NCBI GenBank assembly: GCA_000002435.2
Contig: CM018791.1
DNA length: 64,000 nucleotides
Source: Giardia intestinalis
Lineage: Eukaryota
Strand: one strand, 5' to 3'
Below the pieces are notes generated by a model, which saw only the letters and a program-made list of their open reading frames with translations, ran no database searches and was not told the origin of the DNA. Of this stretch, positions 17,650 to 64,000 are shown in pieces (the first letter of the stretch is position 1; every line of letters begins with the position of its first letter). The position numbers and the translations under genes were made by a program.

Positions 17650-17661
17650 ATGTACTTAGGT

Positions 17662-23777: not shown

Positions 23778-23824
23778 ACAAGAAATTCTGTTTTTTATCG
23801 AAAAGTGCCATTTACTGGGATCAA

Positions 23825-30601: not shown

Positions 30602-31795
30602 CTAGTCTGATCCAGCAAGAGACATGGTAACTGGAATGCACGTGTTCACCCTACGTCCGTCGGAGCTGCCCTTTACGAGACATCCACAGCACATAATAAA
30701 TGGCCCGTTAATCGCAATCCTATTTGGCTTAATAGAAGCTGCGAAGTCATACAGCTTGTGTATCGTAATGGATTCTGTGCTGTAATTATAGCAGGCCAGA
30801 TACAGGCCACGATTCACCATAATTAAGACGTTATTGGATGGTGTCAGGGTCATCTGTAGTATATTCTCGCAGGGAATTTGAACGAGTTTCTCTGTGCACA
30901 CATTGCATACGTATAAGGAGTGATTGCAGCTGACATATATTAGGTCCATTGCGGAAACAATCTGGCTTGTAGCTCCAATAGAGTTAAATGAGCATGCCAT
31001 CAGCCGCTCTGTGTCGTATGAGGGAGGATAGTTCTTGATAAGCTTGTCTGCCTCACTGTACGAATAGATAACAGGAGATCCTGTGTTAAGGGCAAAGGCC
31101 GTTATGATTAAGACCCCATCCTGCTCATGGGCCGTGAACTGTCCATTAGATACTATACAGTCGTCTATTATGGCAAGGTACCGTAATCTGTTACCTGTAT
31201 CCCACCTGGAAATGACCAATTCATAGTGTTTGGTGGATGGCTCCGGGGCGCCTCGCTGAGACTTGCGCTCCTGGCTCGAGCTCATGTACTGATTCTCTTG
31301 TGCATGCGGAGTAAAATTATTCTTTTCTGCTAGCTTGAGCTTGAGAGATGCTTTAAGATTGTTCTTCCCCGGACAAAGGAAGGGAAGAGTTGAGTTTGTA
31401 TTACCCTGGTCTTTTATTTCTCGGGAGTAGATAATAAGGCTAGACACTGTCTCTACGTGGGCAATTACGTGTCCCGCCTCTGCTGTGAGAGAGCTGTATA
31501 CTTGCTTGGAGAGTAGGGGGTATGCATAGAGCCCCCTGGTTGTGCCGACAAGCACACACGGGGTTGCGGCGCCATTACTATATAATGCCATAGAACAATA
31601 GGAGCCTTGAAGCCTACAGAGAAAGTTGCAAAGGGTTACATTTTCTACTACATTTGATGTCACTAAATAGACGGCATTTCTATCTGTCACATAAACATAG
31701 TTTCCTCTACCAAAGACTGTTATCGCTATAAGCTCTGCAGTTCCTTCCTCACCAGTTTCGGGCCGCAAATTGCAAAGACTTAGCACCCCATCCAT
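30602..31795 (-). CDS. hypothetical protein (~397 aa)
   Basis: Long ORF. The start is chosen at ATG 31795 because 'ctaaaacaattttgtagg' lies immediately upstream; alternative ATGs at 31876 and 31909 are not excluded. Confidence 0.45.
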   Translation of the reverse strand: MDGVLSLCNLRPETGEEGTAELIAITVFGRGNYVYVTDRNAVYLVTSNVVENVTLCNFLCRLQGSYCSMALYSNGAATPCVLVGTTRGLYAYPLLSKQVYSSLTAEAGHVIAHVETVSSLIIYSREIKDQGNTNSTLPFLCPGKNNLKASLKLKLAEKNNFTPHAQENQYMSSSQERKSQRGAPEPSTKHYELVISRWDTGNRLRYLAIIDDCIVSNGQFTAHEQDGVLIITAFALNTGSPVIYSYSEADKLIKNYPPSYDTERLMACSFNSIGATSQIVSAMDLIYVSCNHSLYVCNVCTEKLVQIPCENILQMTLTPSNNVLIMVNRGLYLACYNYSTESITIHKLYDFAASIKPNRIAINGPFIMCCGCLVKGSSDGRRVNTCIPVTMSLAGSD

Positions 31796-31820
31796 CCTAC
31801 AAAATTGTTTTAGAGCGGGC
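31796..31820. promoter_or_regulatory. 25-bp bidirectional AT-rich promoter
   Basis: 'cctacaaaattgttttagagcgggc' sits between ATG 31795 (-) and ATG 31821 (+). Confidence 0.4.
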
Positions 31821-44378: not shown

Positions 44379-45350
44379 TTACTCATCTTCATCTGTAGCG
44401 CCGCCCTGATCTTCTGCTTCACGCTTACTTGCTTTAGCTCTTCGTTCTCGATTACGAGGCTTCCCTGTCCCTGTTTCAGGCTTTGTCTCTGACTTATGAT
44501 AGCAATGACCAGTTCCCGCTATTAAGCAACGGTTGCACTCGGGGAAGCTTGCCTTGCAGACGGTTTGTCCAAAGCCGACAAGCAGATGGTTAATATCTCG
44601 CCACTTGTCCTTTGGCAAGGTCTCGACTAGCTGCTTGGCCACATCATCTGGATTTAGCATCTTCCCGTTAGGCTCACACATTCCTTTTTCGACCCATCTC
44701 AGCCTCTGCGCTATGCGGCACACGTGCGTATCCACTGCTATTCCCTCGACTTGGCCATAGACGATCTGAACCAACAAGTGCCCCATTTTTGGTCCAAAGC
44801 CGGGGAGCTTTAGAATACCCGCGAGGTCCTTGGGAATATCGCCCCCATAGTTGTCTAGGCATATCTGAGCAACGTTCTTCATGTACTCTGCCTTTCTTCG
44901 ACAGAAGCCCACTGGATGGATTATCCTCCCCAACTCATCTAGTCCAGAGTCCACCACGTTCTTCGCTGTCAGCCTCCACGCATCAAGCTTCATTAGGTTG
45001 TCAATATCGATAGGAAAGTTCTTCTTGAGCATGGCTTCTGCTTTGGTGGACTTCTGCAGCCCCTTCGTCTTTTCTTCAAACTCTGCCTCGAGCTTCTTTA
45101 AACGCTCTTTGTCAAGGCCGTCAGGGGGCACTGGAAGCATATGATTAAGTTTGTACATGGCGGCAGCGGTTACTCTATCCAGATTTCTGGCAGACAGGAG
45201 AAGGCCTATGGCAAAGCGGAAGCGACCATCTGGAGTTTCTGTTGTATCCGAGAGCATGTGCGCCCCGAATACATCGACGGGGCAGACATACTCTGCCCGC
45301 ATTGTCTCTATTTTCTCCCATGTATCCTCAAGATCCGGGATCGGAGCCAT
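44379..45350 (-). CDS. nth: endonuclease III (Nth) DNA glycosylase/AP lyase, 323 aa
   Basis: HhH-GPD motif LPGFGPKMGHLL, the catalytic region VDTHVCRIAQRL, and a [4Fe-4S] cluster ligand set CKASFPECNRCLIAGTGHC, followed by a basic tail. Confidence 0.85.
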   Translation of the reverse strand: MAPIPDLEDTWEKIETMRAEYVCPVDVFGAHMLSDTTETPDGRFRFAIGLLLSARNLDRVTAAAMYKLNHMLPVPPDGLDKERLKKLEAEFEEKTKGLQKSTKAEAMLKKNFPIDIDNLMKLDAWRLTAKNVVDSGLDELGRIIHPVGFCRRKAEYMKNVAQICLDNYGGDIPKDLAGILKLPGFGPKMGHLLVQIVYGQVEGIAVDTHVCRIAQRLRWVEKGMCEPNGKMLNPDDVAKQLVETLPKDKWRDINHLLVGFGQTVCKASFPECNRCLIAGTGHCYHKSETKPETGTGKPRNRERRAKASKREAEDQGGATDEDE

Positions 45351-45371
45351 TTAATTGTAGTATTTTTTGAA
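45351..45371. promoter_or_regulatory. 21-bp bidirectional AT-rich promoter
   Basis: 'ttaattgtagtattttttgaa' sits between ATG 45350 (-) and ATG 45372 (+). Confidence 0.45.
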
Positions 45372-47327
45372 ATGAACGATTCTTCTCACGAAGCCCTTTG
45401 TCCAGAGTGCCGCGGACGGTATGGCTTCTCGTCGCTGGCAACACACCTATGTTTGGAACATGGGTTTTGTCCTTTTTGTCCCTCTGAAAAGTACATCACA
45501 GAAGATTTGTATCCTGAGTTAATTTGCACACGGAAAGAGCTGGTGGGTCGGCTAGCCCAGGTCTATCGGAAGGTAGCCAGTGACCTTCTTGCGCCACGGG
45601 AGACTGGCTTTTCTCTTGAAGCCTGTAGCTCAATCTATTCGACATATATAGCGTCGTTCTCTCTCCTACGCAAATTTCCTTACGGCCTTTCACCTCCTGT
45701 TGCAATGCTTGTGCATCTTATCATTGAGCATCCAGCAGTAGGATATAGGTTATTGTGCTCATTGAGTGGTGCTGAATCCCTGACAGCAATTTATGCCCTT
45801 GCTTCTTACAGCGAGCTGGTGCCACAAGAAGATGCTCAACTTTGTCCTGATTGCTTTCTCTTTTACACTGACCCAGCCAATCACCACAGTCAGTGTAAGA
45901 GATACTATAGATATCATTTTAAGCATCACCTTCACTATCAGGGCTGTCTAACAGATTGCTTAGCAGGCTCCATGTCATCTGCATATGCGTCAGCTAGGAC
46001 GATCATTGGCCAGTACTTTTGTCCAGAGAGTTTAAAGAACAATCTACACTGTGCTCGATACTATATGAATCTATATGCACCAGTTAGCTCTACTACAGCC
46101 AAGAGTGTGGAGGACAGCCTACGGGGCTATCTTACCCGCTACCCCGTATTCACATCCCTTAGTTACCCAGACAAGGCATACAAAGTCAAGTCTTTCGAGC
46201 TCCAGGGCTCGTACGCTTTTGGCAAGGCCACCATTTACTCAGATATAGACTTTCACCTCGTTATTCTAAAGCTTGAGGGTGTGGAAATGAATGACTTGAC
46301 TTCTGAGGACACAAAAGACTGCTTGTCCTCTCTGATCAGGCACCTACAGGCACCCTCGGCAGGTGAGTGGCTGAGCCAGTTCTCGATGGATAAACCAATT
46401 AAGTATTGCAGGGGTACTACAGGGTTCATAGAGTTTTCACTTAAGAATGCAACGCAATCTGTTAGCCTAGTATTTGGCAGCCAACACCATCTATCTGCTG
46501 GACGGCGGCGACTTGCAATTATGCGGTCCTTTTATCTCGACAAGCTCGCCATCTATGAACGTGCAGAGGGGTTCCTAAAGCAGTGGTTGTTTATGAGTAG
46601 GACAACCGAGGGTAGCACTGCAATGGGCCTCACAAAGTTTGCATCACTGACCATCTTGCAGCGCGTGTGCCTTTTTACTGATGCTGGCAGTCTTCTCCGG
46701 CGGTTCATTTGCTATGATTCAAGTGAAACCTACGAGGCCATGCTAGATCCGCCTTCTGTTGACAGTGTAACTTTTAGCGAGTCGCTGACTCTTTATCAAT
46801 ACGACTATAATGTACGCGGCATAGAAAAAACTATTAACCTTGCTGGATTGCATCCAAACCCCGAGTTAGTTGATCCAGCAAAATTCAAACAACTAGCGAT
46901 TGACCACTGTGCTGACAATAGATCAAAACGTGATATTCTTGACGCCATATTGCAGTTAGCAGATACTCCTGAGGAGATCTCGTTCATCTGGGCCTTTACT
47001 CTCATCCACGAGGTATTGCGCTACCACCGAGACTTCTATCAGCAGACACTTAGATGTAAGTTGAGCTCCGATCAAGAAATGTCAACAACGAATGTTCTGT
47101 ACAGTCTGCGTGATTTATTGAGCATCTCTAATGACTTGGAGCCCATTTCCACGGAAACGCGTACGTGTGTATCTGCACACGTGACAAAAACCATGACATT
47201 AGCCTGTGCATTTAGAATACTCTTAACCGTGGAAACAAGCATGCTGTTTTTGCGATACTTTCTACCCACCCCTCCGCACTGCAGCACAGCAGATCGCGAA
47301 GTTCTTCATAAACTCATTGCAATCTAA
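45372..47327 (+). CDS. hypothetical protein (651 aa) with a nucleotidyltransferase-fold motif (Cid1/PAP-like) and an N-terminal Cys/His cluster
   Basis: ELQGSYAFGKATIYSDIDFHLVI matches the NTase motif hG[GS]x9-13Dh[DE]h (compare Cid1 GSFKTGLYLPTSDIDLVV). The N-terminal segment CPECRGRYGFSSLATHLCLEHGFCPFCP has zinc-finger-like spacing. The ORF-track start at 45141 overlaps the nth gene and was rejected in favour of ATG 45372. Confidence 0.5.
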   Translation: MNDSSHEALCPECRGRYGFSSLATHLCLEHGFCPFCPSEKYITEDLYPELICTRKELVGRLAQVYRKVASDLLAPRETGFSLEACSSIYSTYIASFSLLRKFPYGLSPPVAMLVHLIIEHPAVGYRLLCSLSGAESLTAIYALASYSELVPQEDAQLCPDCFLFYTDPANHHSQCKRYYRYHFKHHLHYQGCLTDCLAGSMSSAYASARTIIGQYFCPESLKNNLHCARYYMNLYAPVSSTTAKSVEDSLRGYLTRYPVFTSLSYPDKAYKVKSFELQGSYAFGKATIYSDIDFHLVILKLEGVEMNDLTSEDTKDCLSSLIRHLQAPSAGEWLSQFSMDKPIKYCRGTTGFIEFSLKNATQSVSLVFGSQHHLSAGRRRLAIMRSFYLDKLAIYERAEGFLKQWLFMSRTTEGSTAMGLTKFASLTILQRVCLFTDAGSLLRRFICYDSSETYEAMLDPPSVDSVTFSESLTLYQYDYNVRGIEKTINLAGLHPNPELVDPAKFKQLAIDHCADNRSKRDILDAILQLADTPEEISFIWAFTLIHEVLRYHRDFYQQTLRCKLSSDQEMSTTNVLYSLRDLLSISNDLEPISTETRTCVSAHVTKTMTLACAFRILLTVETSMLFLRYFLPTPPHCSTADREVLHKLIAI

Positions 47328-47328
47328 G

Positions 47329-50300
47329 CTAAATAAATCTTACCCCAAAGAAAGGATTATGCTCTAGCCATTCCTCGCTACTGATGCTTGTTTTGTTGGG
47401 CAAGTAGACTACGGGCTGGATGCGTCCTCCTATTTTGATAGGTACGGGGACCATGTTGGCAGGAACCCGTAGATACGTGTGCCTGTGGCTGCCCGCTATT
47501 GATGTCTGTCTGGTTGTTGTGTTGTTGGTAACTACGCAGTAGGCGTACAGCTCTAAGCAGTTATTATATCCATGCGCTCTTTCGACAGTGTCAGCGCAGA
47601 CAGTTTCTAACACGGCGTCATATGATATCCTGAAGAGCTCAAGATTTCTGAGAACCACGTAGAAAGGACATTGATTTTGGCGGTCTGTGCCCTTGGTCTC
47701 AGTGTCTATGGTGCCATCCTCACGAATCTGCGGCATGTAGCTGGGCTTTTTAATGCTTACGACAATCCTTTGCCTGTTAATGGGGGTCGATGTAAGGACA
47801 GCCGAGTGCATTCGAACAAAGTTGAGTATGTCTCCGAGAATCGGGCCATATGTGCTAACGTTGATGATCCAGTGCGTGGGGAATGAACCAAATCCTACGT
47901 TCCCATCGACAGTGAACATATCTGGAAGACCCACGTTAGGGATAATGTGCTTAAGGATGTACATAGACGAAAGGTTCCTGCTAGGAGATCCGAACGGGAT
48001 ACGCTTGAAGTCCTCGTGTGCCATAACATAGGTCCTTAGGGCAGATGTCATTTTGCTGAGGTCCGTCTTACGGGCAGCATTGACTATTTTCATGGTAGAC
48101 GGAAAGTTTGGGTTAACAACTGTAGAAAGCGTGTTCAGCGTCGTGTTTGACGAGAAAAGGTGACGATAGTAGAACTCCTGAGGAAGGCTGTGTTGGGCAG
48201 CAGAAACCAGATATCTCTTCTGTCGTGAGATTTGCAGGTCACTGGTTTCCTCAGTGCTGTAAGCGTATAAGCGTAGTTGTTGTACAAGGTCCAGTAAGTC
48301 AGAAATGTCATTATAAAACGGAAGAATGTCCAGCCATTCCGTAAATTTTCCTGCACGAGTCGTCCCAGAAGCGCGTTCTGCGGCAAGATTTGGAATGGTA
48401 ACGGTGTTAAGAGAGCGGTGCTCAATCTCTACCAGTTTGCGGACAGTTCCTTCTATTTTCTTAGTGTCGATGGGGCGTTCATCAGTAAGGTCTCCAGCGG
48501 CAATTTGAATTGTGACCAGCAAGTTTTCATAGATATCGTCCTCTTCACACCGAGCAGCCGACTGTACCCCTTGATTGTTGCGCAGAATGCTGGTTCCCCG
48601 AGAGCGAGTAGTAATACTAGACCCTCGTGAGGATAAGTTGTCACTTCCAGCTATAGACTCCCCATCGTCAAAACCGACAAAGTCTCCCTCTCGACCGTCT
48701 CCGTCCATTCCAGTAAGCTGCGTTGAGGCCTTACTGCTTTCTAGCGAAAGGGTAGACTCTGTAATGGAAGTGCTCGAGGAGAGCTCATCTTCCTCGCTGT
48801 CAGAACTTCCTGCAAGGCGCAACTTCTTCTTCGCTGCCTTTTGTGCTTTTGCGCGCATAGTTTCCTTCAGTAGTCGCATGACAACCTCATCATGTACCTG
48901 TTGCTCGGAGACAACCAGCCTGGTTGGTATTATCTTTGATAAGGCCTCAAGCTGGCCAAAGTTGAGACTGTAAATTACTTTCGCGACGCGCTTATATTGT
49001 TTGGAGTCTACTCGATTCATGAGGATTGCACTGTTGTCTCTCAAGAGCGTGAGATTGACGAATGCGCAGCTCTTGAAGGACGTTTTGTCATACTTTTGCA
49101 CTTGCTTGGTTACAGCCCGCAATAGCACCTTTTTGAGCTTGTAAAAGAGCCTTGTATCGTCCATAAATATAGTAGATTGATAACTCAAGAACGAGTGCTT
49201 TAGAGCCAAAAGAACAATCCCACGCATAGTTATAGGGGGCTGGAAGTTTGGAACAGCTTCCAAGTCTATCACTTTAAAGCAAATCATAATGAGCAACGTG
49301 ATGCCGACCATACAAAGATTGAGATAGTGAACAAATGCCTTGCTCAGTGTGCCAGGATGCTGTATGTAGATGTAGTTTGGAACAGTCAGGATTGATATCT
49401 CATATAAAAGACTAGTGAAGTGTTCTGAGTCGAGATGAGTCAGTGCTGGTGAGCTGCTGTGGTTTGCGTTCAGGGCGGAGGGAAACAGAGAAGAAGATGG
49501 TACGAAGATGAAAATAGGGTATGTGATGTCGTATTTTCGTATACTCAGCTTCTGTCTCAAGATGTTGATGACATCTTGGAGCAGAGCCGCCCCACCTAGA
49601 GCAGGGTCTGCCACGGCAACGGTGATTGATTCTATTATATCTTGGAAGGAAAGGTGCTTAGCAAAGTTAGCCCGTACGGTTCTATACGGGTTACTTGGAA
49701 GCAGGTGGATAAACGTGAAGACATGGTCAATGGAGATGATTTTGTCAAAGAATATCAGAGTGACCTGTATGGGCGACGGCCCCATGGCCATGATGTGCTG
49801 CATCTTCTTGTCCTTTAGAATTTGCGGATCGGCATCAATCTCCTGCACCTTGGCATTATATCGCTCAAGGACCCTAAACGAGAAAGTATACGCATCGTAA
49901 AGCTGCATGACGCAATCTGATGCTAAGTCGGGTGGCATCTCTATGTCCTTTCCGACGCTTGTCTTTGTAGGGAGTCCAACAAATGTGAGCAGGTTCCGGA
50001 ACGATAGGCCCATGGCTTGCAGATATGTCTGGACTAACTCCCCGCGCTCTGCAGCCGATGATATCTTCATATCACTTCTGAAATGGCCAGTTAGCCCTTT
50101 TGGTGCGTTAACCGACATCGTCGCAGAAAGCTGCCAAGCGCTGGGTCCACAACGCTTTTCCAGCATCACAGCCATCGCTTCAAAGGTGTCAATGATGAGC
50201 TCAGGCTTCAAGGCATTGGACAGGGAGAAGATAGCAAAGAAGGATTGGCTGTCCTGCTTAGCTAGCATAGGCGGCAGTTTGAACACCTGGTAATTAGATG

Positions 50301-53300
50301 CCATGGCATCCTGCATCAGCGATGAGTACCACTGCTGCAGTGCAGTCTTCTTTTCTGTGTCCTTTGCTCCCTTTATCGTTAATTCGGTAGAGTGCTGTCC
50401 TGCTGCCATATTAGCTCTGGCGTAAAAGGCTAATACAGAGGCGAAGGGCTGCTCACACCTAGAGAAACAAACAAAGGCAGCGTGATGCTTTAGAAACCAT
50501 GTCAGAGAATTGGCTATCACAGGATTGTACCTTCCCAACAGACAGAAGAAGATCCAGGACATAACAACCTTAGGAGACATGGAGGTAACTTCCGGTATTA
50601 GATGCTTGATATTATTCAGCACGTCTGCATCAGCGTTGTCTGCATCTATCTTCGTCAAGGCAAATTTGCTCTTCATATAAAACGCCCCCATAATTTGCTG
50701 GGTTGTGAGAAGTCTCGTAATATCTTTTATGGATGAACGAAGAACAGCAAACAAAGATAGAGCTGGAGCTGTCACGTTTTCCATGAGGGGGTTGATAGAA
50801 TAGGGCCGTTCCTTGCTTATTCCACTCAAGTCTCCAATTGCCGTAGAAAAGAGAATATGTATCAAGTGCCATATCCCAGCAGAAAGCTCTGGAGGGAAGA
50901 CGTTGATAAGCCGGGCCTCTAGAGTCGGAATCATCACAGACATAAGGAAGTTCTTGAGCGTCCCAGGATCATATCTTATACAGAACGCTAGGATATTCTC
51001 GTCCTGCATGCTTACAAGGCCGTTCTGAAGCATATATTCCTCTGAGAAATCATGCTGGAACCGAGGGTCTTTAGCATACTTTTCTTTGAGGTGTCCCTGA
51101 AACGAGGACACGGCCTTGACTAGAGTAATCTTGAAGATAATGAAAAAGTCTCGAGAATACCCTATGAGGGCAGGGAGATGGTAGGCCGAGATCTTTCTCA
51201 AGTAGTAGATAATGGCATTGACAGCAAGCGCTATATCGTCGCAAAGAGCCTGTCCATACGTATTCACGATATCGAATATAGCACAGCGAATGTTGACTGG
51301 CGTGTCAACTAGCTTGTACTCCTTCTCCTTGTCCTTTGATAACATGCTGCAGCGCTCCTGCTGAAGAAGAATCAGCCCCTTTAGTGCGGACAAAAGCTGA
51401 CTAACCTCGGTCTTCCTTGACGAAGAAGCGTGGAGCACAAAGCTAGCTGCAAAGCAAACATGCTGTATACTATCCGAAGACCCTGTTAGTTGCGTAACCA
51501 TTTGGTTCATAGCAGCTTGCTCCATCTCTCGCTTGGCCACAGTGGGATCAGCTGAACGAATAAATGAAGTACCCATCTGGGACACCTTGTCGGTGGACAG
51601 ACTCAGGACATGTACCATGAGATAGCTCTTAACCTGGTCGCTAGCGAGGTTGATCATGCGTGAGAAGCGCACATTATTCAAGCGATACCGCTCGTTACGG
51701 CTACGAATTCCCTCTGATTCTCCAAAGATCGACTCCAGAAAGATCTGGGACATGATGTGCTTTTGGCTTTGAAGTAACATCATTTCAGTATCTGCAAGTG
51801 CTACCCTGTTTGGTGATGAGTAATGTGTACAGACGGCAATGGTGTTGATGAAGTGTTGAGTGAAGAGCCCTGCGTTTATCAGCACGTCGCCCAGACTCAT
51901 CCCCTGGCTCAGAGCAAAGATGATGGTGTACTTGTGAAGTGCCTGGGCAGTTATAGCTGTCACCGACCCGATGGCAATGGTTTGTCGCTTCCCAATGGTC
52001 TTTCGCGATCGCAGGACCATGAACTTTCTTAGGGTAGTATAGTTGCTTGTATCCGTATTACGAGATTCCATGTTAATGAATAGGAATGTGTACTCTCCAG
52101 TGCTCAGACCTCTGGCAAGGGTTGCGCTGAATTCACGCGGTGGGATGCGCATGTCTATCACCAGAACGCGCTTCTGCAGATCAGCAAGGAGGTTTGTCAC
52201 ATCGTTCAGACGAGGATTTGTTGGATTCATCCCATGAACAATTACACTGGCCACTTGCTCATAATACAAAGTCCCTTGGGCTTCTTGTTTCTTGCATGCT
52301 TCCAAGAAGCACGCCGCCGCTACCCCTAACGTCTCATCAACACAAAAGACCGTGCTTCCAGTAATGTACCGTATAGCAACAGAGTAGAGTCCAAGCATAG
52401 CAGGATCTCCCATGGACCATGGGATGCGGAAGCCCTTGAGAAGCATTAGGATCGGCCAGTCAGCTCCGAGAAGTTCCACTAAGTGACCCATAAAGGCAAA
52501 CTGTCCATACTGAAGAGTGGCGTTGCATATCATCGTCGGCGAATTTTCGTTGAAATCGACTTTCTTGGCCTCTGGGTCCGGGAAATCCACACTGAATCCA
52601 AGGCTGCTGTAAAGCGCCACTATCATGACATTGAAGCAAGAGATATTTGCGGTTGTGGAGCTTTGATCAAGTAACTTAAGCAATTTCATGGGTATATCTC
52701 CAAAGACACCACCAAGTAAGGCATCTCTAGCGGTTCCTTCCGTAACCAATCCAGGTATCGAGAAAAGAAGCGAGGCTGCAATGGCCACAGAGTCTAACGC
52801 AGCAGAGCGTGCTGCTGCCGCCATTATGCGGAAGTCAGTCTTCAAGGCGTCTATGCAGGTATGGATTAAATCTCGCATCACAACAGCTTCTGCTATGGCA
52901 GTAAGTAAGTCTCGCTGACGCTTACTTGCTGAATCGCTATTCTTATCGTCCTGGGAAACCTGTGCCTTGACAGCTTGGTCAATGGTCTTCGCAACCGAGT
53001 CTGGAGATAGCTCTGTGACGTCAATGGTCTTTGGCTTTGTTTTGCTAGGCGACGCTAAGGCTTCATACAATCTCAATGCGATGAAAAGCGTATTTAGAAT
53101 GGACATGAAGTCAGCAACCTTTAATAAGATAGTGTTACAGATTTGAGAAGCGAGATGTGTGAAGACAGACATCGAGGGGCATGCATTGATGCTGTTTGTG
53201 CTACAAAAGCGATAGACACCAACAGATGCCACCATGAATGTGTGATGGAAAAGTGGCCAGTCCACACTGACTTTGGTTGGGAGAACAACTTCCGTTGGAA

Positions 53301-56300
53301 GTTTGCAGTCAGAGAGTTGAAAAAGTGAGAACAGGTCGAGCTTGTCCATGGCCACAATGTTAACATTGCATTCGTGCAGTCTCTTCTGGAGCATTATCTC
53401 GAGGAAGTTCTTCATCTGTACTGGGGCATCTGGCACCTGCGGTCGGACCAGCGTGAGCTTACTGTCAGTCTTTTCTGCCATCTTCGCTTGTGCCTGCGCA
53501 GCATCTTCCAGCTTTTTAGTTGCTCTACTTAGACGCATCTCCTTGTGCAGGTCAACGAGATTGGTTACTAATTCTAAGATGGGAGACTTGACACTGCCCA
53601 GCACCTTTGCACGCATGCACTCGCTAGACGATACTACCATAATGTCTTTAGAAAAGATCTTATCGGCACAGTTGAGGGGGAAATCATCGATGATCACAAC
53701 GCTAAGAGTGAGTGATAGGATTGAGACTAGAACGCGTGAATCTGCCACGATATCCAAACCTAAACCAAATGTCGCGAGATTACAAAGACACTGGATCTCT
53801 TCTTCGTCAAAGATGGACTGAAGAATGTTCAGGGGCTCGAGGCTCCGGCAAAGAAGTGAGTAGGCCGTGACCCCCGTTGGGGACGTCCTCATTAGGGTGG
53901 ACATTGGGGTCATGATTAGGACATTCATAGGACTGTGAAGTAGACACTTACTCATGATGGTATCTCGTGTTACCTGCTTGTTAGCGTCGTGGCCTTGAGG
54001 AGCAACATCCACCTCGTCCAAATTGACATGATCTTCTAAAAGCAGTTTGGAGTACTGTTCTATCTTTATCAGGTATTCGGACCAGGACATGACTGCAAAA
54101 GGTAGCTGAGAAATACCCCGTCCTGTACCAATCACGCGGCTAGGAAGCGAGGTAGTTAGAGCCGAGTTGACGCTGAAACCCAGGTTGAGAAGCGACGGAG
54201 AAACAGTGTTTGCTGAGGACTTTGCAGTCAAGAGTATTTCTGGCTTTATTCCTAACGCCATGGCAAAAGACACTCGCAAAATCATGATGAGCGCCAGAAA
54301 ATCTAGTGTGTCGCTGTTGTACAGGCTCGTGCTTTGTAGCTCTGCAATCATCTTTTTAAGGTTGTCGATCAGGTCCAGGTTTTCTTTTGGCTCTTTTCGG
54401 TCCCCTCTAGGCGGTCGCTTAGTCCGTAGCACAGTTTGTCCGTCCAGATGACTCAGGATTGTTGTTACGTCGATTAAAATCCTCTGTTGGCTCGATTTTT
54501 TGCCAGTTTCTGAGAGCCCGACGGCCGATGTAGCTGCCGACATGCTGGAAAGCTTACTCCTGCTACTCCCCTTTGAAATCTCAGATTGCGCGTCATCAGG
54601 ATCCTCGTCCGCGGCAGCCCTGTTCATCTCTGTAAGCGTCTGCTTGAACCTATCAGAGCTGAGAATAGTATAGTTCCCTAGAGCAGCAAACAGTCTAACA
54701 AGCTGATTGTAGGAGTTGCTTGGGGCGTTATCAATACGAATGATGGCCTTGTTAGGCTTCATGGAAAGCATAGTGAGCAGAGGGAACCCGTCAAACTGGG
54801 TTTGCTCATCGCCGTCTTCGTGCTCCTGCCGAGCTATATCTTCTGCGACCTTAACTTCGTTCTCAAGAGAATCAACAACCTCTGTGATGACCTCTCTATC
54901 TTCTTGACTCATATCTGAAGAGTAAAGAGAAGCTGCTATCTGCTGAGGATCAGTCAGGATGTCGGTTGCCGAGGAGTCCTTCGGGACCCCAGTTGTTGCT
55001 ACCTTCGTATACGCTAGAATGCGTGCAGCATAAATACTGGCATGCTTGAGAATCTGCAGCCTAGTAGGAAATATCGGATCCTCGCCATAGAGGGAGCTCA
55101 TACTTCCCCCGCTTCTGATGCTAATACCATACGTTAGGAGGCAATTAAGTTTTGCAAGGTTGAGCTCCCTGCGCGTAGCTATAACAAGAAATGCTTCTAG
55201 TGCGCGACACGTGATAAACGGATCTAGGTCTTGGCCGTAAAGCTTAACCATGGACATGAGATGCACAAACCAAAAAGGATTGGTGCTCCGATAGTTGAGG
55301 CTTAAGAACGACGACCTATCAACTAGAGTCTTGAAGAGATTGACCGGGGAATCCCTCAGGTCTACCTCTGTGACGTGATGAGATATCAGCGTATTAATCA
55401 TGTATTGATTTCCGAGTCTGAATGTAGAGGCTTGGGCATCTGCAATGTCAGACTTGGTGCTTTTCGTGGTGATCTGTATGTTTGCCGTGTCTAAAGTTTT
55501 ATTAGTTGCAGTTTGCTGCATTCCGGTGCCTGTTTGAGTGCCGCCTTGCTCACGCCTAGCTGTCATGTAGTTAATAGACTGGTTCAATACATACCGCTCC
55601 CACGCCGTGACAAGGATGAAGTTTCCCTTGACTAAAAGTCGTGCGTCACTCCACGGTGTAGTAGAGCTAGCTTGTGATTTCTGGGCCAGCTGCTGTTTGT
55701 GCAGAGCAGTCAGTTGGTCCTCACCACTGTTGTCTGCCTCATCATCCAAATATCCTAAAATACTTAGGCTTGCAAACCGCTCTATAATTCCCTGTAGGAC
55801 AACGAGATTTGTCTCCGAAAGATTGCGGAGGGCACCAAATAAGGAATGGATATTGGCATTAGATAGCTCCCTATCCCTGTTAGCTTTAATAATACTCGTG
55901 ATAGAGTCGGGCGGAAGTCGTCCAGGGTGTTTCCCCATGGTCTGGTACGCCTCTATTGTTGCGAGCATGTCATCGCTGATGTCAGCAGGGTCCTTCATCA
56001 AAAAGGAGTTGTAGTTCTTCAGCCTGTCAAACACTGTGAAGCTATTGATAAGCCCCACCGGGAGAGACCCTTTAATAAGGAAGTATCCATTAATAAACTG
56101 GAAAATCCACGATTCGGTATGGTGAGGATACACCTTCAGGAATAGACTGCGAAGGAAGGGCTCTGTAAGCGGCGGCATTTTAATTGTCAAGGCGGCATTC
56201 TGGGCAATCTCAGTATTGAATCTATCACACTCGATAATGAAGCTACAGTCGGATAACGATGCACACCCAGTTTTAAAGCTTTGAAGTGTTTCTGGGTAGA

Positions 56301-59300
56301 TAGAGTTGGGTAGGATCACAGATGAAGGCATTTGGCTGTATGATTTGCGAAGCACCACGTCCTTTTCAGCAACATCCATCAGAATGACATGGTCCCTTAG
56401 TAGAAGTGCGATGTGCTCGGAGATTTCTGCACTCCGACAGTCTGAACAGTGCAAGTGGAAAGAAGGGAAACTCAAAGAGCTGTAGTAGTCAAGTATCATA
56501 TTGCTGTCTTCGTCATGGATAGCCGCTGTAGTGCTGCTATGCCTGTTTGCGGATGACTGTGCTGCTCTGCGAAGAGTGAACTTCTGTGCAATACCAGTAA
56601 GCACAGAAAACGTTGAGGAGTCGCTATGCAAATCAGACAGTAAAATCATGTTTGTATCGACCATATCCCGAACCAGAATCTTGGCAGCATCCAAGATAGT
56701 TGTCTTCCCAGATCCCCGCTCCCCCACAAGGGCCAGAGAAATAGGACTGAGCATAGCACACCCAAGGACCACCAAAATGGCTGCCCTATGGGAGTCAAAA
56801 TAAATGGGACTGTCCAACAGCGAGTGAAGACTGGGTCTTTCCCCTCTGTCCTTATCGAGAATGATTTCATTAATATCACTTTTCTCTCGCTTCTGCTGTC
56901 GCTTTGCAGCCATTCCGCGTGCAAGGTCGTCATCGTCGTCGCCCGATTCGCCTTTTGCTTCGTTAGCCTGCTCCTCGGTGTCCTTATTAAGTCGTGCCTC
57001 ATATGCCTGCTTTCTTCGTAGACACAACGTTTTTTCTGCGATATACAAAATGTTCTTCTCTAAGGACACCTTATCAGCATCAAGGATAACATTATTGAGC
57101 AGGCCCTCTCCTACCTTATATGTGCGGAACTCGACGCGGGCATGGAAGTGATTGTAATGTTTAGACTTCTTCTCCTTATTGATGCCGAACTTGTAATCGA
57201 GGTAACTAAACGTGTCACCGGACATATACTTTGGCACGATATGAGTGACCTCTTGCATGGTATTTCGAATTCCGGTCATAAGCTGCTCGTTTGTAAGTCC
57301 GTGGTTGAGTTTGGCCAAGGAGAGTTTTTGGGAGACAGTGTAACTAGCCAAGCACTCCCTCTTCAAAGATGGAAGAGATTGATCTGCTTCTGATAAAATC
57401 AAAACTATGGCGGCTATCATTGAGCAAAATGTGCCGTGGCTGACTTTCTGTAATTCAGAAAGCTCAGCTATGACTTTCGTATATCTTTTCAATAGCAAAT
57501 CGTGTGCTGTCTTTGGTCCCTGTGCTAAGAGGCGCTCCCAGTTGCTACTTGCAGTGAATGTGAGATAAAAAAGAGAGCATGCATTCCAGATTGCGCAGAA
57601 AAATGGGGTGCATATGTTAATGAACGCAGTCATGTGCTTCTTTGGATGGAAAAACGCCTCGTTGAGATACTTTTCTGTGAATCCAAAGGATAGACTGCCT
57701 TGGAAGCCTATTCCGAAAGGTATTATATCGTTTTCTGCATTAAGAAGAACAGTGTGGTTGATTATTTCAGAAACGTTAGCTGAATTGCCAGCTTCTGCCG
57801 TCAACTTCTTCATTTGAGCCTCCAGACTCATTAGGGTGTTCTTTGAAAAGCCGGCAACCTCTGAAAAAGGGTACAGATCATCAGACACCCGAACACGCGA
57901 CTGCATAAGGTTTCCTAGTACAAATAGCTGCTTCCGCTTCACCTGTAGAACATTAGCATCAGACGACAGGTGGCCGACATATGTATTCTCAGATTTGTGC
58001 TTCCCGGCCTTCTGTGATTTCTCATGCATCTGAGTGGTGGTAAGATACTGGGCTCCGAGAATTCTTGTCATAGCGTTAATATCGCGTCCTCTTTGACCCA
58101 TAGCAACCTCAGATATGCGCTGGACACAAGCAGATGCCGTGTTTTGATCAAATTTATCACTTACTGTGCAGATCTCTTTGAGGAAGTCATTTTGCAATCT
58201 GCGCTTTCTTGGTGTAACAACTCCATTACGACAGAGGTTGAAGTAGATGATAGACCGCAAGAGATACACCTCCTCTATACTTCTCCCGTAGCCAAATATC
58301 TTTGTAATGACGTCGTAATAGAAGGATATCACCCCCTTCACAAAGGTGGGAAGTGCAGAGATGCGCTTTTCTGCTGTTATCAAGAGCCGGTCCTTGAGCG
58401 AGCTGTGGAGTAAGATCGACCTATAGTTGGTCACAACACTTTCTAGAGCACACGAAAGCGGACTGGCTGGATCATCCCCGTATTGATTCACGTGTTCCAT
58501 ACCCTCCAGTGCGGCGTCCAAATCGCGTTTCCAAAGCATGTGGTTACGGTGCACAAGACTGAGGAGCTGCGCTTCTTCAATATGCAGGCTGCCCTGGCAT
58601 ATCTTTTTAGACCCGTCTGCGCCCTCGATGGACGGAAGCAAAATCAGACGGTGGCATATTGATTTGATAAGCGGATAACCAATTATGTCCGGGAGGAAAC
58701 TAGGACTGAAAACAATAAGGTAATGTGGTCCGTGTGTTACATCAATCTGGATTTGTGACAGGTTCTTGTCGTCTGTTAGGACAGGGAATCCAAGGGATAC
58801 ACTGATAATTATTTCAAACATCTGAAGGAATGCACTGACATTGGATGGTGCGATGACGATCAGGTGCTCCTGAACGGGTTTGTCGTTTGCAATGCTATCG
58901 CTGAGATCGATTGCCTGGATGGCTTTATGTGCGCTATAAACAGACGTGGCGTTGAAGCAATAGTGCATACGCCAGCCGCGCACAGCAGCAAGGATACTAG
59001 CAAAGGTTTTGAGGTAAGAGATTTGCGGAACAACCACCAAGACTGGCTTGTATGACCGCAAAAGGTCGTTACAAAACAGAACGTCATAGACTGTTTGGAG
59101 GGAAAGCTGATGTGCTTGCGAGAACATGTTAATATACCACTGAAATTGCTGGGACAAGTAGCGCGAAAGACTATCTGTGTAATACTTTAGAAAACTCACC
59201 TGCTTGATTGGCGCATTCTTAGCTTTGTCCATTTCATAAGTATCTCCAGTTTCTGCATACTTCAGTCCCAGATGAACCCGAGCAGACTCAACGGTCCCTA

Positions 59301-62300
59301 GGAAATTGCGAGCCAGGCGGCCTATGTGCATTGAGTTCATCTTGTCGAGGCCAAATGCTGCGCATACAAACTGTGAATAGACAGTGGTCAATGACCTTAG
59401 CTCATGCCGCGTGGCCTTCAGTGAGAGAAAGCTTCCTGTCTGTCGCAGGATATAGTCAAGTGTCACTGCTGCAACACAAGATGTGTCGGACTTATCTTTG
59501 GCGCGGCTATAGATCATCTGGACATCGGAAGCTAGCAATCTACAAGAAAGAGGACCCATGGAGGCCAGGAAGTTATTGAGTTCGCAAAATGTGTGATAAT
59601 ACTCCGGTGATACCTTCTTAAATGATGACTCGGGCTGGTCAAATTCCAAGTATACGAGCTCTGAATGCTTAAACGCATTGATGCAGCTCTTTCCATGCTC
59701 TGTAAGGTGGTATACCGCTGCATAATTGTCCTGGACCTTGCTCAGTTCTTCGCCGCCAGACTGAGGTCCAGGATCAGTTGTTGATGTTTGGCTCTCTGGA
59801 TTTGCTTCATGCTCCTCCTTTTGGGCAAAGAAAAATTTGTCAGCTGTGATAATGGGTGCGAGCTCGGGAAGATGGAAGATCAGCAAGCCGTGATCCGAGA
59901 AGTCTGAGAAGTCCGCAATCTTAACTGTGACCCTGGATTGTATGTAGTTTAGTTCAGGACTGCCAAAGAACAGCTTGCTTTTTATGGCCTTCTTCTTCTC
60001 AGCAGCGCTTATTTCATGGGTAACGCAAAGCGTTTCGAGGGGACCGGCCTTTCTGCGCAAGCTATGCGATAGTTCTACCAGCTCCAGGATCTGCGGTGTT
60101 GGCAAGTACTGCAACCCGAATACGAGAACCACATATCCGGCGCAAAGACAGGCGGTGATCCGCTGCAAACACTTCACAAACGTGAACTCTGCAACGCAGA
60201 CACATACCAGTCGTCGACCAAGTAGGTGGCACGTGTGCAGAACCAATTTCGTTGGCTCTTGGGTATAGATGGACCGAGTAGCTGCTGTTAGAAGGAATAC
60301 TGGAAGACCCATGGAAAATCCATTAACTATCGACGTCGCAGCATACCTATATTGTAAAGGAATGGCTGAAATAATGTCCAACGGAGTCGGGGCACCGATC
60401 CAGTGAGGCCCGTATGTAATTAGAAACTCACTGAGTGACGATGTGACATACAGATCATGGGTTGTAGGGTTGTAGACGGTGAAGGTGATGCTATTATTCA
60501 TTGAGAGTATCCTGTTTAGGTCATCGCCGCGGAGGATCTTCTTTAGGTCTTGGAGGTACTCGCACCAATCAGCCATGTGCTGAATAAATACCTTTACATA
60601 TATAGGATTCTTTTGCATGCTATTGATCTTCACCGCGAGTATAAGGTTTTGGAAAAAGTCAAGAAGTTCTGCCAGATCATTATATGTGGGGTTTTTAACA
60701 AGCGCGAATCTGAAGAGTAAGCTGCGGGTCTTCTCTAGCAACCAGGTGGATATTGCTATGATAACTGCGCGAAACAGGTTGGTCTTAAGATAGTTGGAGA
60801 ACCCATCTGGATCTCTGATCATCGGCGAGGAGGCCAACTTCTGCTTATTTCTTTCTAACTCCTCGTTGATAGGTGCACTTTTGGTCACAGATGATGCTGA
60901 TTGACTGACCGACTGTGCCATCTGCTCCAGGTGTAAATAGGTAAAAAACCCTTCCGGAGGTGCTTCACCATGGAGCCCCTTGCCCGTAAACTTCATGTAA
61001 GCCACTGCAAATTCATCCCACGCTTTCTTAACAGCATCCACAAAAGATGCACGGGTTTCTGCGGCTACAGCGTCTGGTACAAGATAAATGACATTGGGTG
61101 CCTCAACAGGAGTGGTGAACATTAAGCTTTCGTCACCAGATCGTATGCCATTTATGATGGAGCCACGAATAGACGACGAGTCAATAAGATACTCGTCCAT
61201 TCCGTGAAAAACCTCATAACTCAGAGAAGTAACCAGCTTGAAAAGGCTCTTTTTTAGTGGAAAACAGCCACAAAACACCTGGCACACAGACGAGCAGAAA
61301 AGTGCGGAAGGAAAATTCTTCCCGTTGCTCCAGGGAATGAACTTCCGTGGGCCAATGGAAAGAGTCTCCGGGTCGGATGTCTTTACTGAGTAGTATGGAG
61401 AGAAGGTGGTCGTAGTCGAGCTTTTAGTAGCCAGGTCTTGAAACGACTGCAGAATGGCGAAATCTTGGTAGAAGTGAATGCGCTTATGAATAGCATCGAC
61501 CTCAAGCATGTGCTTAGAGAGGGTCTTGAGAACGTTCATGTTAATAACTATACAGAGGAAGGGCACAGACGTGCTCATAGAACGTGCCGTAGAGATATTT
61601 CTTAGAATTCGTGCTCCAAGGGACTTTTTCTTCATAATCTCCTCTACAGAGCAATACTTCGTGATCACGTCTCTCCAGGCGGCACATGCAGCCTGAAGCG
61701 TTGTGATATCTTGCTTTGACAGTATGTTGACAGTAAAGGCTTTCCTCCCCTGTTCTGTCTTTAGCCTTGTAGCCAGTTTTGCCCGTTCTGCCTCTGTGAG
61801 TTCTGCTCCTCCAAAACGCTTGGCCAACTGGTTGGGCGAGGGAGACGCATCACCTGGTGCTGCCACGTCCTTGATAATCTTCTTATGATAGTTGGTGAAG
61901 AGAGTTTCTTGGGGGCCCGTGAAATTGATCAGGTTGGCGTTGGCCTGGTAGGTGAGGAGATCTTGTAGCACAAATGGCATGCGCTTAAATATCGTAATGA
62001 GAAAGAGCATTAGCTGTGCCAATGCCTCGAGATCGCGTGCATACTCCTCTACATTCTGCGTGTATCGCCATTGCTGGAGATATTGTCGATGTGCGTCAAA
62101 GGCCTCAGACAAGTAGCGTGCAGTCAGGATGGTGCTCTTACTGGCCACATATGCCAGGTTAATGTCGAAGGATTGAGTATAGTCTATGTATCGTGTCCCA
62201 ACGTATCCAAGATTATTTAGCACAAGGGAAATCGTTACTAAGGCCTCTCTGCATATCTCTTCCGCGTTGGCGGGCGTGATAATGGCAAAGTCTATGGCAT

Positions 62301-64000: not shown

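What the first reader, a model, noticed from the sequence alone, without database searches (positions are those of the whole stretch)
47329..64000. Giant (more than 5480 aa) single-exon ORF with one P-loop and no recognisable family signature
A 16.7 kb continuous minus-strand reading frame runs off the window edge. It has one Walker-A motif (GERGSGKTT) but lacks the four-P-loop pattern of dynein heavy chains. I could not assign it to midasin, PIKK, BEACH or HECT families from motifs. Proteins of this size in Giardia are rare, and many are unannotated.
Basis: seen in the sequence. Interest (0 to 1): 0.55.

Follow-up and report, generated by a model that had tools for sequence, protein, structure and literature searches.

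The report
Cryptic, degenerate dynein heavy chain of Giardia
The giant "hypothetical" Giardia gene is a real, strongly conserved relative of the dynein motor protein, so diverged that only structure prediction reveals it, and it has lost three of its four ATP-binding loops, so it probably no longer works as a conventional motor.

Summary
A minus-strand frame is open for 5,556 codons (47332-63999, stop at 47329-47331) and runs off the window. It is 100% identical to Giardia intestinalis WB GL50803_37350 (A8BPH9), a 7,100-aa "hypothetical protein". It has one Walker A, and no Pfam or PDB sequence or profile match.

It is a real gene. dN/dS against assemblage B is 0.04 along the whole length. Collinear 4,300-7,700-aa homologues occur in Spironucleus, Hexamita and unnamed assemblies.

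The alignment shows four P-loop positions at dynein-like spacing. Three are decayed (AAA1, AAA2, AAA3 "GxGxxGS"). One is intact, most likely AAA4, and has a Walker B Asp but no catalytic Glu.

Best reading: a diplomonad-restricted, dynein-derived, probably non-motile protein, conceptually like animal DNAHX/DNHD1. The stalk/microtubule-binding domain, the AAA5-6 mapping, expression and location are unresolved.

The parts
47329..63999 (-). C-terminal 5,556 codons plus stop codon (47329-47331) of GL50803_37350, which is 7,100 aa in full. The N-terminal 1,544 aa lie beyond the window edge.
   Evidence: 100% identical to P0003 = XP_001705756. dN/dS 0.041 against assemblage B.
61009..61818 (-). Linker-like region (window aa 728-997; full-length 2272-2541). 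It contains 'IINGIRSGDESLMF', which resembles the canonical dynein linker motif 'I.GM.S.EGE.V.F'.
   Evidence: hhalign of the family profile against a profile of 74 canonical linker-AAA1-AAA2 pieces: best local hit here, collinear, score 30.1, P=0.04. It exceeds the reversed control and all 24 block-shuffled controls (max 27.9). This is marginal, not significant on its own.
58432..60834 (-). First structural tile (window aa 1056-1856; full-length 2600-3400): end of linker, AAA1-like module, AAA2-like large domain.
59845..60387 (-). AAA1-like alpha/beta large domain. The beta-strand 'LPVFLL' (nt 60289-60306) is followed by 'TAATRSIY' where canonical dynein has GPAGTGKT. The strand 'AGYVVLVFGLQYL' sits where canonical dynein has GAWACFDEFNRI. 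No Walker A and no Walker B acidic pair.
   Evidence: DSSP of model 1; family alignment; low-confidence extended hhalign alignment supports this register. An alternative register cannot be excluded, but neither register contains GxxxxGK[ST].
58642..59193 (-). AAA2-like alpha/beta large domain with five predicted strands. The P-loop position is occupied by the family-conserved 'PQxSYx[RK]' (PQISYLKT, nt 59005-59028).
   Evidence: Model 1 DSSP, strands at tile 598-731; alignment.
57694..57714 (-). Decayed Walker A of the putative AAA3: 'GIGFQGS' (family GxGxxGS[LI]). The glycine frame is kept and two Gly are invariant. Lys is replaced by Ser and Thr by Leu/Ile.
   Evidence: Invariant G3640/G3642; alignment block; spacing of 358-583 aa from the AAA2 site against 358 in a canonical chain. 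Inferred from sequence, not modelled.
56062..56784 (-). The only intact nucleotide-binding module, most likely AAA4. Walker A GERGSGKT is at nt 56701-56724. The Walker-B-like strand 'MILDYY' is at nt 56482-56499 (Asp kept in 8 of 9 sequences; never followed by Glu). Invariant R-D-H lies in 'LLLRDH'.
   Evidence: Generic AAA+ P-loop similarity to ORC4 only (E about 0.14). The assignment to AAA4 rather than AAA3 is an inference from counting P-loop remnants and from spacing.
54754..56064 (-). Mostly helical 437-aa region between the intact P-loop module and the next alpha/beta module. If the P-loop is AAA4, this is where the AAA4 lid, stalk and microtubule-binding domain should be.
   Evidence: AF2 model 2, tile 1-420: helices only, but pLDDT mostly below 50. 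The spacing of 660 aa in Giardia compares with a recalled (not measured) ~660 aa in human dynein-1. Not demonstrated.
53677..54753 (-). Alpha/beta elements of a further AAA-like module (putative AAA5). Strands include 'AIIRID' followed by NAPSNSY, 'RILIDV', 'NVLIMTP' and 'VVIIDDF'.
   Evidence: Model 2 DSSP strands at tile 438-443, 528-532, 714-720, 787-793, local pLDDT 55-83. Foldseek on model 2 ranks dynein motors first but weakly (best E 2.8e-3).
52759..53583 (-). Cluster of long helices (36, 39 and 55 residues) after the putative AAA5. It may be the lid plus strut/buttress, or under the alternative mapping a shortened stalk.
Evidence: Model 2 helices 828-863, 965-1003, 1048-1102, pLDDT 60-87.
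47332..52416 (-). C-terminal ~1,690 aa starting at the family-conserved 'W.PGDP' (nt 52396-52416). This may correspond to the canonical AAA6 'LSPGxDP'. The region is conserved and collinear across the family but not modelled.
   Evidence: Alignment A1. No Pfam hit. No MIDAS/VWA domain. The motif resemblance is from memory and untested.

Best explanation
The ORF encodes GL50803_37350, a dynein-heavy-chain-derived giant protein. It belongs to a small family found so far only in diplomonads and unnamed relatives.

Shown here:
- It is a real gene under strong purifying selection.
- The modelled region upstream of the P-loop folds as dynein linker end, AAA1 and AAA2.
- AAA1 has no Walker A.
- Only one canonical Walker A exists in the whole protein, and it is conserved in every full-length homologue.

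Inferred:
- The protein keeps the dynein order of four P-loop sites. AAA1, AAA2 and AAA3 have decayed, and the surviving site is AAA4.
- That site keeps the Walker A Lys and Ser/Thr and a Walker B Asp but has no catalytic Glu. It probably binds nucleotide with little or no hydrolysis.
- AAA1 is the site that drives the powerstroke in every characterised dynein. This protein is therefore most likely a non-motile pseudo-motor: a rigid AAA+ ring with a linker and a long tail, acting as a structural or regulatory component of the diplomonad microtubule/flagellar apparatus. The remaining nucleotide site would act as a conformational latch rather than an engine.
For: - Real gene: open for 5,556 codons. 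dN/dS is 0.041 overall and 0.027-0.082 in the 500-codon blocks where dS could be estimated (one block saturated) against assemblage B. 51-97% identity in every 100-aa window.
- Family: an exhaustive HMMER scan of 1.84 billion representatives finds only 19 proteins, 8 of them giant and collinear: three in Spironucleus salmonicida, several in Hexamita inflata, three from unnamed Logan assemblies. One Hexamita member is named 'Dynein heavy chain' by UniRef.
- The second tile again ranks dynein motors first, but weakly.
- A marginal, collinear linker match in profile-profile comparison beats 25 of 25 controls.
- P-loop remnants and the single intact site. Spacing between successive P-loop positions is 425, 437 and 330 aa. 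Canonical chains measured here give 281 and 358 for the first two.
Against: - No sequence method reaches significance against dynein: Pfam, PDB phmmer and family profiles, hhalign against canonical AAA1 (Prob <1%).
- The assignment rests on one confident AF2 model built from an 8-sequence alignment. Both fold searches use that same model.
- The second model is poor (pLDDT 54), and its dynein hits are not significant (no hit at E<=1e-3).
- A stalk, a microtubule-binding domain, a strut and a closed six-module ring were not demonstrated.
- The AAA1 register and the AAA3-versus-AAA4 identity of the intact site are inferred from motif resemblance and spacing only.
- Loss of motility is inferred from sequence. 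An unconventional catalytic arrangement cannot be excluded.
- No expression, localisation or interaction data were found.
Confidence: 0.78

Rival explanations
1. It is a working but unconventional motor. The single conserved P-loop site (AAA4 or AAA3) has taken over as the ATP-hydrolysing engine, with catalytic residues supplied from non-canonical positions.
For: The P-loop module is among the best-conserved parts of the protein. It has an invariant Walker A Gly and Lys, a mostly conserved Walker B Asp, and invariant R-D-H and D/E residues nearby. Purifying selection acts over the entire 7,100 aa, including linker-like and ring-like parts.
Against: No Glu follows the Walker B Asp in any of the 9 sequences. 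In all characterised dyneins the powerstroke is driven from AAA1, which here has neither Walker A nor Walker B (established knowledge; see also PMC2533788 abstract). The described precedents with degenerate AAA1 (DNAHX, DNHD1) are interpreted as non-motile (bioRxiv 10.1101/2025.01.18.633724).
Confidence: 0.12
2. It is another giant AAA+ ring protein, midasin/Rea1-like or a novel lineage of the dynein/midasin/MoxR clade, rather than a dynein derivative.
Confidence: 0.05
3. The dynein resemblance is an artefact of AlphaFold on a shallow alignment, and the protein is a lineage-specific fold of unknown kind that carries one AAA+ P-loop domain.
For: Only 8-9 sequences were in the alignments. Model 2 is poor. 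All sequence-based tests are negative or marginal.
Against: No templates were used, yet model 1 reaches pLDDT 70-90 over 428 residues and reproduces two successive AAA+ large domains with an intervening lid. Decayed P-loop remnants sit exactly where the modelled strand-loop-helix elements predict them. There is an independent marginal linker signal and an independent UniRef label on a family member.
Confidence: 0.04
4. It is an artefactual ORF or a decaying pseudogene.
For: No expression data could be retrieved.
Against: dN/dS is 0.04 with dS near saturation. The frame is intact at 7,096-7,100 aa in many independent assemblies of two assemblages. Full-length homologues exist in other genera.
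Confidence: 0.01

Closest known systems
Canonical dynein heavy chains (cytoplasmic dynein-1, dynein-2/IFT dynein, axonemal outer- and inner-arm dyneins)
   Same: Predicted fold of the linker end, AAA1 and AAA2. A single giant polypeptide with a long N-terminal tail. Four successive P-loop positions at comparable spacing. The nearest structural relatives beyond dynein are midasin and MoxR AAA+ proteins, as expected for dynein AAA modules.
   Different: 7,100 aa against about 4,000-4,700. No Pfam dynein domain is detectable. AAA1 lacks Walker A and Walker B. The AAA2 and AAA3 P-loops have decayed. Only one intact P-loop remains, and it has no catalytic Glu. There are about 1,000 extra residues after the last recognisable ring motif. 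The stalk/MTBD is not demonstrated.
[quoted passage not shown]
   Same: A dynein heavy chain with multiple insertions and a non-conserved AAA1 site, interpreted as non-motile and structural or regulatory.
   Different: DNAHX is readily recognisable as a DHC. It branches from outer-arm alpha heavy chains within animals, and its authors report it absent from protists. It keeps a Walker A (Thr to Val) that still binds ATP at AAA1. The Giardia family has lost the AAA1 P-loop altogether and has no detectable sequence similarity to any DHC class. The resemblance is convergent, not orthologous.
DNHD1 (human 'orphan' dynein heavy chain domain 1; class DHC11 of Kollmar 2016)
   Same: A long-overlooked, aberrant DHC with disordered insertions and a poorly conserved AAA1 lacking catalytic Walker B residues, which nevertheless functions in flagella (as summarised in the DNAHX preprint).
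   Different: A different lineage (opisthokonts), still detected by dynein profiles, and shorter (4,753 aa, from my own knowledge). No evidence of orthology.
'Orphan diplomonad dynein' of Kollmar 2016 (PMC5100056)
   Same: That survey reports unclassified Giardia/Spironucleus DHCs. One has an N-terminal tail that aligns to none of the nine classical classes, which fits a diplomonad-specific aberrant DHC.
   Different: Identity with GL50803_37350 could not be checked, because no accession appears in the text and no supplement is held. Those orphans were found by sequence similarity to dynein motors, which this protein does not show with HMMER or HH-suite.
Midasin / Rea1 / Mdn1
   Different: Midasin has a C-terminal MIDAS (VWA) domain, a D/E-rich linker and several intact P-loops. 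None of these is found here. Dynein matches are better and longer.

Membership tests
Dynein heavy chain (homology / fold) | Motor region structurally superposable on solved dynein motors (linker followed by tandem AAA+ modules) | tested here: met
Dynein heavy chain (curated sequence family) | Matches to Pfam DHC_N2, AAA_6, AAA_7, AAA_8, MT, AAA_9 or Dynein_heavy at gathering score | tested here: not met
   No such hit at E<=1 in any tile of the Giardia protein or in the 3 homologues scanned. Canonical controls score 500+ bits for AAA_6.
Dynein heavy chain (functional motor) | Intact Walker A and Walker B in AAA1, the principal ATP-hydrolysis site | tested here: not met
   No GxxxxGK[ST] anywhere in the modelled AAA1 under either register, and no DE pair on the Walker B strand.
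Dynein heavy chain (functional motor) | Four nucleotide-binding P-loops (AAA1-AAA4) | tested here: not met
   One intact P-loop. The other three positions hold remnants: 'TAATRSIY'/'GSxExG', 'PQxSYx[RK]', 'GxGxxGS'.
Dynein heavy chain | Linker domain N-terminal to AAA1 | tested here: inconclusive
   The Foldseek alignments span the helical N-terminal part of tile 1. The hhalign best hit falls on the DHC_N2 region, P=0.04, above 25 of 25 controls. This is not significant by itself.
Dynein heavy chain | Antiparallel coiled-coil stalk with microtubule-binding domain between AAA4 and AAA5, supported by a strut from AAA5 | tested here: inconclusive
   Model 2 covers the region, but pLDDT is below 50 where the stalk is expected under the preferred mapping. 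Long helices are seen further downstream. No significant match to a canonical MTBD segment.
Dynein heavy chain | Six AAA+ modules closing a ring, plus a C-terminal domain | tested here: inconclusive
   AAA1 and AAA2 are modelled. AAA3 and AAA4 are inferred from sequence. Further alpha/beta elements are predicted at moderate confidence. The last ~1,690 aa were not modelled.
DNAHX subfamily | Branches from outer-arm alpha heavy chains within animals; AAA1 Walker A retained with Thr to Val, trapping ATP; PS2 insert in AAA4 lid | tested here: not met
   The AAA1 P-loop is absent rather than point-substituted. The taxon is a diplomonad, and the DNAHX authors report the subfamily absent from protists. 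Phylogeny was not computable because no alignable sequence similarity exists.
Midasin / Rea1 | C-terminal MIDAS (VWA) domain preceded by a D/E-rich region; several intact P-loops in the ring | tested here: not met
   No VWA or any other Pfam domain in the C-terminal tiles. A single P-loop. Structural match weaker than dynein.
Integral membrane protein ('Putative membrane spanning protein', the name given in two isolate annotations) | Genuine transmembrane helices | tested here: not met
   Only 5 hydrophobic 19-mers score at least 1.9 on Kyte-Doolittle across 7,100 aa. The two that fall in modelled or assigned parts are AAA+ core beta-strands: the AAA1 strand 'AGYVVLVFG' and the strand before the Walker A.

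The most novel reading that the evidence does not exclude
Diplomonads carry a lineage-specific, dynein-derived giant in which the ancestral engine (AAA1) and two further sites were dismantled. A single site, probably AAA4, was kept as a nucleotide-gated switch. This would be an independent, protist origin of the 'non-motile dynein' concept recently proposed for animal DNAHX/DNHD1, and the most degenerate dynein ring known. It may serve as a structural element of the unusual cytoplasmic axonemes or other diplomonad microtubule arrays, or as a template or chaperone for other dyneins.
Probability: 0.3. Interest if true: 0.75.

Novelty: new variant of a known kind. Interest (0 to 1): 0.55.

Why it matters
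Giardia's largest "hypothetical" proteins are a blind spot, and about 40% of its proteome is uncharacterised (abstract of PMC13322205). Assigning this 21-kb gene to the dynein lineage gives it a testable context: flagella and microtubule cytoskeleton.

It also shows that dynein inventories based on sequence profiles can miss family members entirely. If the non-motile reading holds, dynein rings have been converted into pseudo-motors more than once: in animals (DNAHX, DNHD1) and independently in diplomonads. This case would be an extreme natural experiment on which AAA site is indispensable once motility is lost. Here the site that survives is a regulatory one, not AAA1.

For parasitology, a diplomonad-restricted, strongly constrained cytoskeletal giant is a candidate lineage-specific vulnerability.

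Tried and rejected
1. Pfam on overlapping tiles of the window protein, on the N-terminal 1,600 aa (assemblage B copy) and on three homologues. Only sub-threshold P-loop hits.
2. phmmer of 5,000 aa against PDB sequences, and family-profile hmmsearch of two regions against PDB at E<=10. No dynein; only ORC4 P-loop and a coiled-coil protein at E about 0.1.
3. hhalign of the P-loop module against every 400-aa window of the family, looking for internal AAA repeats. Nothing.
4. hhalign of the putative AAA1 against a profile of 120 canonical AAA1 fragments. Not significant, and it proposed a different register, so the AAA1 register is reported as unsettled.
5. Two database searches to obtain full-length canonical dyneins for a coordinate-level map. 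The tool returned only pieces under 900 aa. They sufficed for linker-AAA1-AAA2 but not for AAA3-AAA6 or the MTBD. One intron-rich locus was inspected and abandoned.
6. A single chimeric canonical piece (P0219: AAA4 Walker B, MTBD, AAA5) compared with the rest of the family. No significant hit.
A contiguous tile was used instead and gave a poor model.
8. My first mapping (intact P-loop = AAA3, 'PGDP' = AAA5, stalk at full-length 5017-5290) was downgraded. This followed finding the GxGxxGS remnant between AAA2 and the intact site, and the dynein-like spacings.
9. Literature and supplement searches for the gene ID in any paper, in the 2026 localisation atlas and in two proteomes. No true hits; the numeric matches were coincidental.
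10. The 'membrane spanning protein' annotation was rejected.
Full report
OBSERVATION. The minus-strand frame is open from window 47332 to 63999 (5,556 codons), has its stop codon at 47329-47331, and runs off the right edge. The translated protein has exactly one Walker A, GERGSGKT, at window aa 2426-2433. Pfam scans of five overlapping tiles at E<=1 give only sub-threshold generic P-loop matches, and phmmer against all PDB sequences gives nothing relevant.

IDENTITY OF THE GENE. The large protein database holds only two clusters related to the query. One is a 7,100-aa protein of Giardia intestinalis assemblage A. Its WB member (GL50803_0037350, XP_001705756, UniProt A8BPH9, "hypothetical protein") is 100% identical to the window over all 5,556 residues. 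The other is the 7,096-7,098-aa assemblage B orthologue at 86% identity. The window therefore lacks the first 1,544 residues (full-length position = window aa + 1,544). Two isolate annotations call it "putative membrane spanning protein". That name is unsupported. Only five strongly hydrophobic 19-mers exist in 7,100 aa, and the two that can be placed are AAA+ core beta-strands. No paper in the searchable library mentions the gene by any identifier.

IS IT A REAL GENE? Yes. A codon alignment of the window with the assemblage B locus (L001) gives dN/dS = 0.041 overall. In the 500-codon blocks where dS could be estimated it ranges from 0.027 to 0.082, with synonymous sites near saturation; one block was fully saturated. 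Protein identity is 51-97% in every 100-aa window. Expression could not be examined. The localisation atlas and two proteome supplements contain no true hit.

RELATIVES. An exhaustive HMMER scan of 1.84 billion representative proteins with window aa 1150-2349 found only 19 proteins. Eight are giants of 2,068-7,705 aa at 23-38% identity. They comprise three paralogues in Spironucleus salmonicida, at least two clusters in Hexamita inflata, and three proteins from unnamed Logan assemblies. Two of those three lie on compact, intron-poor contigs of the same run, SRR31929897. No canonical member of any known family was hit. The nine sequences aligned are collinear from about full-length 1,250 to the C-terminus; one Hexamita sequence is C-terminally truncated. 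One Hexamita member carries the automatic UniRef name "Dynein heavy chain". Every full-length homologue keeps the single Walker A in the same context.

WHAT IT IS. Reading the sequence, I noticed a resemblance to the dynein AAA1 region and treated it as a lead only. Sequence tests did not confirm it:
- a family profile against PDB sequences gave no hit at E<=10;
- hhalign against 120 genuine canonical AAA1 fragments gave probability below 1%.

Structure did confirm it. An AlphaFold2 model of full-length 2,600-3,400 (window aa 1056-1856) was built from an 8-sequence family alignment without templates. It reached mean pLDDT 69 and pTM 0.59, and shows a helical segment, an alpha/beta AAA+ large domain, a helical lid and a second five-stranded alpha/beta domain.
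- Foldseek against 350,542 PDB chains returned 104 hits at E<=1e-3. The 50 listed are all dynein heavy-chain motors (dynein-1 from human and yeast, dynein-2, axonemal dyneins), with E from 9e-10 to 3e-7, probability 1.00 and 770-860 aligned columns, which is the whole query.

A second profile-profile test used 74 real canonical pieces spanning linker, AAA1 and AAA2. Its best local hit falls on the dynein linker (family "II.GL.S.dE.L.F" against canonical "I.GM.S.EGE.V.F"), collinear with AAA1. The score is 30.1 (P=0.04), above a reversed and 24 block-shuffled controls whose maximum is 27.9. This is marginal but points the same way.

A second model (window aa 2646-3845) was poor (pLDDT 54). Its Foldseek list is again headed by dynein motors, but with no hit at E<=1e-3. 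I count it as weak corroboration only.

THE NUCLEOTIDE SITES. The family alignment shows four P-loop positions.
- AAA1: the strand "LPVFLL" is followed by "TAATRSIY" in Giardia and "GS.E.G/SY" in relatives, where canonical dynein has GPAGTGKT. The strand corresponding to the Walker B "CFDEFNR" reads "VVLVFGLQY". An alternative register suggested weakly by hhalign would shift these assignments, but it also contains no Walker A.
- AAA2: "PQxSYx[RK]", a conserved non-P-loop sequence on the first strand of the second modelled alpha/beta domain.
- About 437 aa further on: "GxGxxGS[LI]", with two invariant glycines. This is a Walker A glycine frame in which Lys became Ser.
- 330 aa further on: the intact GxxxxGK[ST].

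Measured spacings in Giardia are 425, 437 and 330 aa, and 380-420, 358-429 and 240-313 aa in the compact relatives. Canonical chains fetched here give 281 (median of 72) and 358 for the first two intervals. The simplest reading is that the dynein four-P-loop pattern is present but three sites have decayed, and the survivor is AAA4. This step is inferred, because I could not obtain residue-level structural alignments or canonical AAA3-AAA6 sequences.

The surviving site has a Walker-B-like strand, "(I/V)LD(Y/C)", 72 residues after the Lys. Asp is kept in 8 of 9 sequences but is never followed by Glu. Invariant residues follow it (FPSFH, LLLRDH, LSDCS.IIE). That pattern suggests nucleotide binding without efficient hydrolysis.

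DOWNSTREAM ARCHITECTURE (LARGELY UNRESOLVED). After the intact site come three regions:
- about 437 mostly helical residues, modelled at pLDDT below 50;
- alpha/beta elements ("AIIRID…", "RILIDV", "NVLIMTP", "VVIIDDF");
- a cluster of 36-55-residue helices.

A conserved "W.PGDP" and a further ~1,690 residues follow. From memory of canonical motifs these could be AAA4 lid/stalk/MTBD, AAA5, strut and AAA6 respectively. The 660-aa distance from the intact P-loop to the next module compares with a recalled (not measured) ~660 aa between AAA4 and AAA5 in human dynein-1. None of this reached significance. Compact family members have about 130-160 fewer residues in that interval. Whether the protein can bind microtubules is therefore open.

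HOW IT MOST LIKELY WORKS. In all studied dyneins AAA1 hydrolysis drives linker swing and microtubule release, while AAA3 and AAA4 are regulatory (for example PMC2533788 and PMC7683685 abstracts). A chain with no AAA1 Walker A or B cannot run that cycle. Yet the whole 7,100-aa protein is under strong constraint. I therefore favour a non-motile, dynein-derived scaffold or regulator whose one remaining nucleotide site stabilises or switches ring conformation.

The closest precedents are conceptual. The first is DNAHX of externally fertilising animals: insertions, a non-conserved AAA1, a permanent pre-powerstroke lock, and a proposed role as a template that pairs with other dynein chains. The second is DNHD1 (bioRxiv 10.1101/2025.01.18.633724). 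That preprint reports DNAHX absent from protists, and the Giardia family shares no detectable sequence similarity with it, so any similarity is convergent. Kollmar's dynein survey mentions an orphan diplomonad dynein whose tail aligns with none of the nine classical classes (PMC5100056). It might be this gene, but no accession is available to check.

The family occurs in Giardia, Spironucleus and Hexamita, and the last two lack a ventral disc. A role tied to features shared by diplomonads, such as their flagellar apparatus, is therefore more plausible than a disc-specific one. This is speculation.

RIVALS. An unconventional motor powered from the surviving site is possible but lacks a catalytic Glu (0.12). 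A midasin-like or other AAA+ giant fits worse structurally and lacks a MIDAS domain (0.05). An AlphaFold artefact is unlikely, given the concordant P-loop remnants, the linker signal and the UniRef label (0.04). A pseudogene is excluded by dN/dS (0.01).

MEMBERSHIP AND NOVELTY. Homology to dynein heavy chains at fold level is met. The curated sequence signatures and the catalytic hallmarks (AAA1 Walker A/B, four P-loops) were tested and not met. The stalk/MTBD and ring closure are inconclusive. I therefore file it as a dynein-heavy-chain-derived, probably non-motile protein, not as a canonical dynein motor and not as a member of DNAHX, DNHD1 or midasin. It is a new variant of a known kind. It is interesting because it is invisible to profile searches, extremely degenerate yet highly constrained, and lineage-restricted. 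It is not categorically new.

Noticed in passing
window 4924-11103 and 13827-20007: A large inverted duplication: two ~6.18-kb arms at 99.35% identity, separated by a 2.7-kb spacer. Each arm carries a 735-codon cysteine-rich (CXXC-type, VSP-like) ORF (7285-9489 minus, 15442-17646 plus; 99.7% identical proteins). The arms overlap the GC-richer stretches of the window (GC 0.57-0.61).
   Followed up: partly
window 31770-38441 (+): A 2,223-aa ORF whose only Pfam match is an N-terminal CFA20 domain (PF05018, E 3.5e-11, residues 45-209). This makes it a giant CFAP20-domain protein, whereas canonical CFAP20 is about 190 aa (my own knowledge). The remaining ~2,000 aa are unassigned.
   Followed up: no
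window 23828-25348 (-): A 507-codon open stretch with a sub-threshold, partial kinesin motor match (PF00225, 24.6 bits against a 29.3 cut-off, covering only residues 27-102, profile 12-91 of 327). It may be a degenerate kinesin-like protein.
   Followed up: no
window 45141-47331; L001 24253-24291: The convergent neighbour (728-aa ORF with no Pfam hit, ending at 47327) stops one base from the giant gene's stop codon (47329-47331). In assemblage B the two called genes overlap by 39 nt. The 3' ends of the two transcripts must overlap.
   Followed up: partly
window 20118-23843 (-) and 45141-47327 (+): Two further sizeable ORFs (1,242 and 728 aa) with no Pfam match at E<=1e-3.
   Followed up: no
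L003 667-22752 and L004 6001-29118 (both Logan run SRR31929897): Two paralogues of the family (7,361 aa at 38% identity; 7,705 aa, GC- and Ala/Gly-rich, at 23%) lie on compact intron-poor contigs from the same sequencing run of an unidentified organism. Their neighbours differ from those in Giardia intestinalis, so there is no synteny. Spironucleus has three paralogues and Hexamita has at least two clusters, whereas Giardia intestinalis has one.
   Followed up: partly
P0219 (NCBI 'hypothetical protein NQ315_003378, partial', Exocentrus adspersus): This canonical dynein gene model is chimeric. It jumps from AAA1/AAA2 directly to the AAA4 Walker B region, the MTBD and AAA5 (Pfam AAA_6, AAA_8 fragment, AAA_9). 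It was useful as a source of canonical motifs, but it is a mis-spliced prediction.
   Followed up: partly
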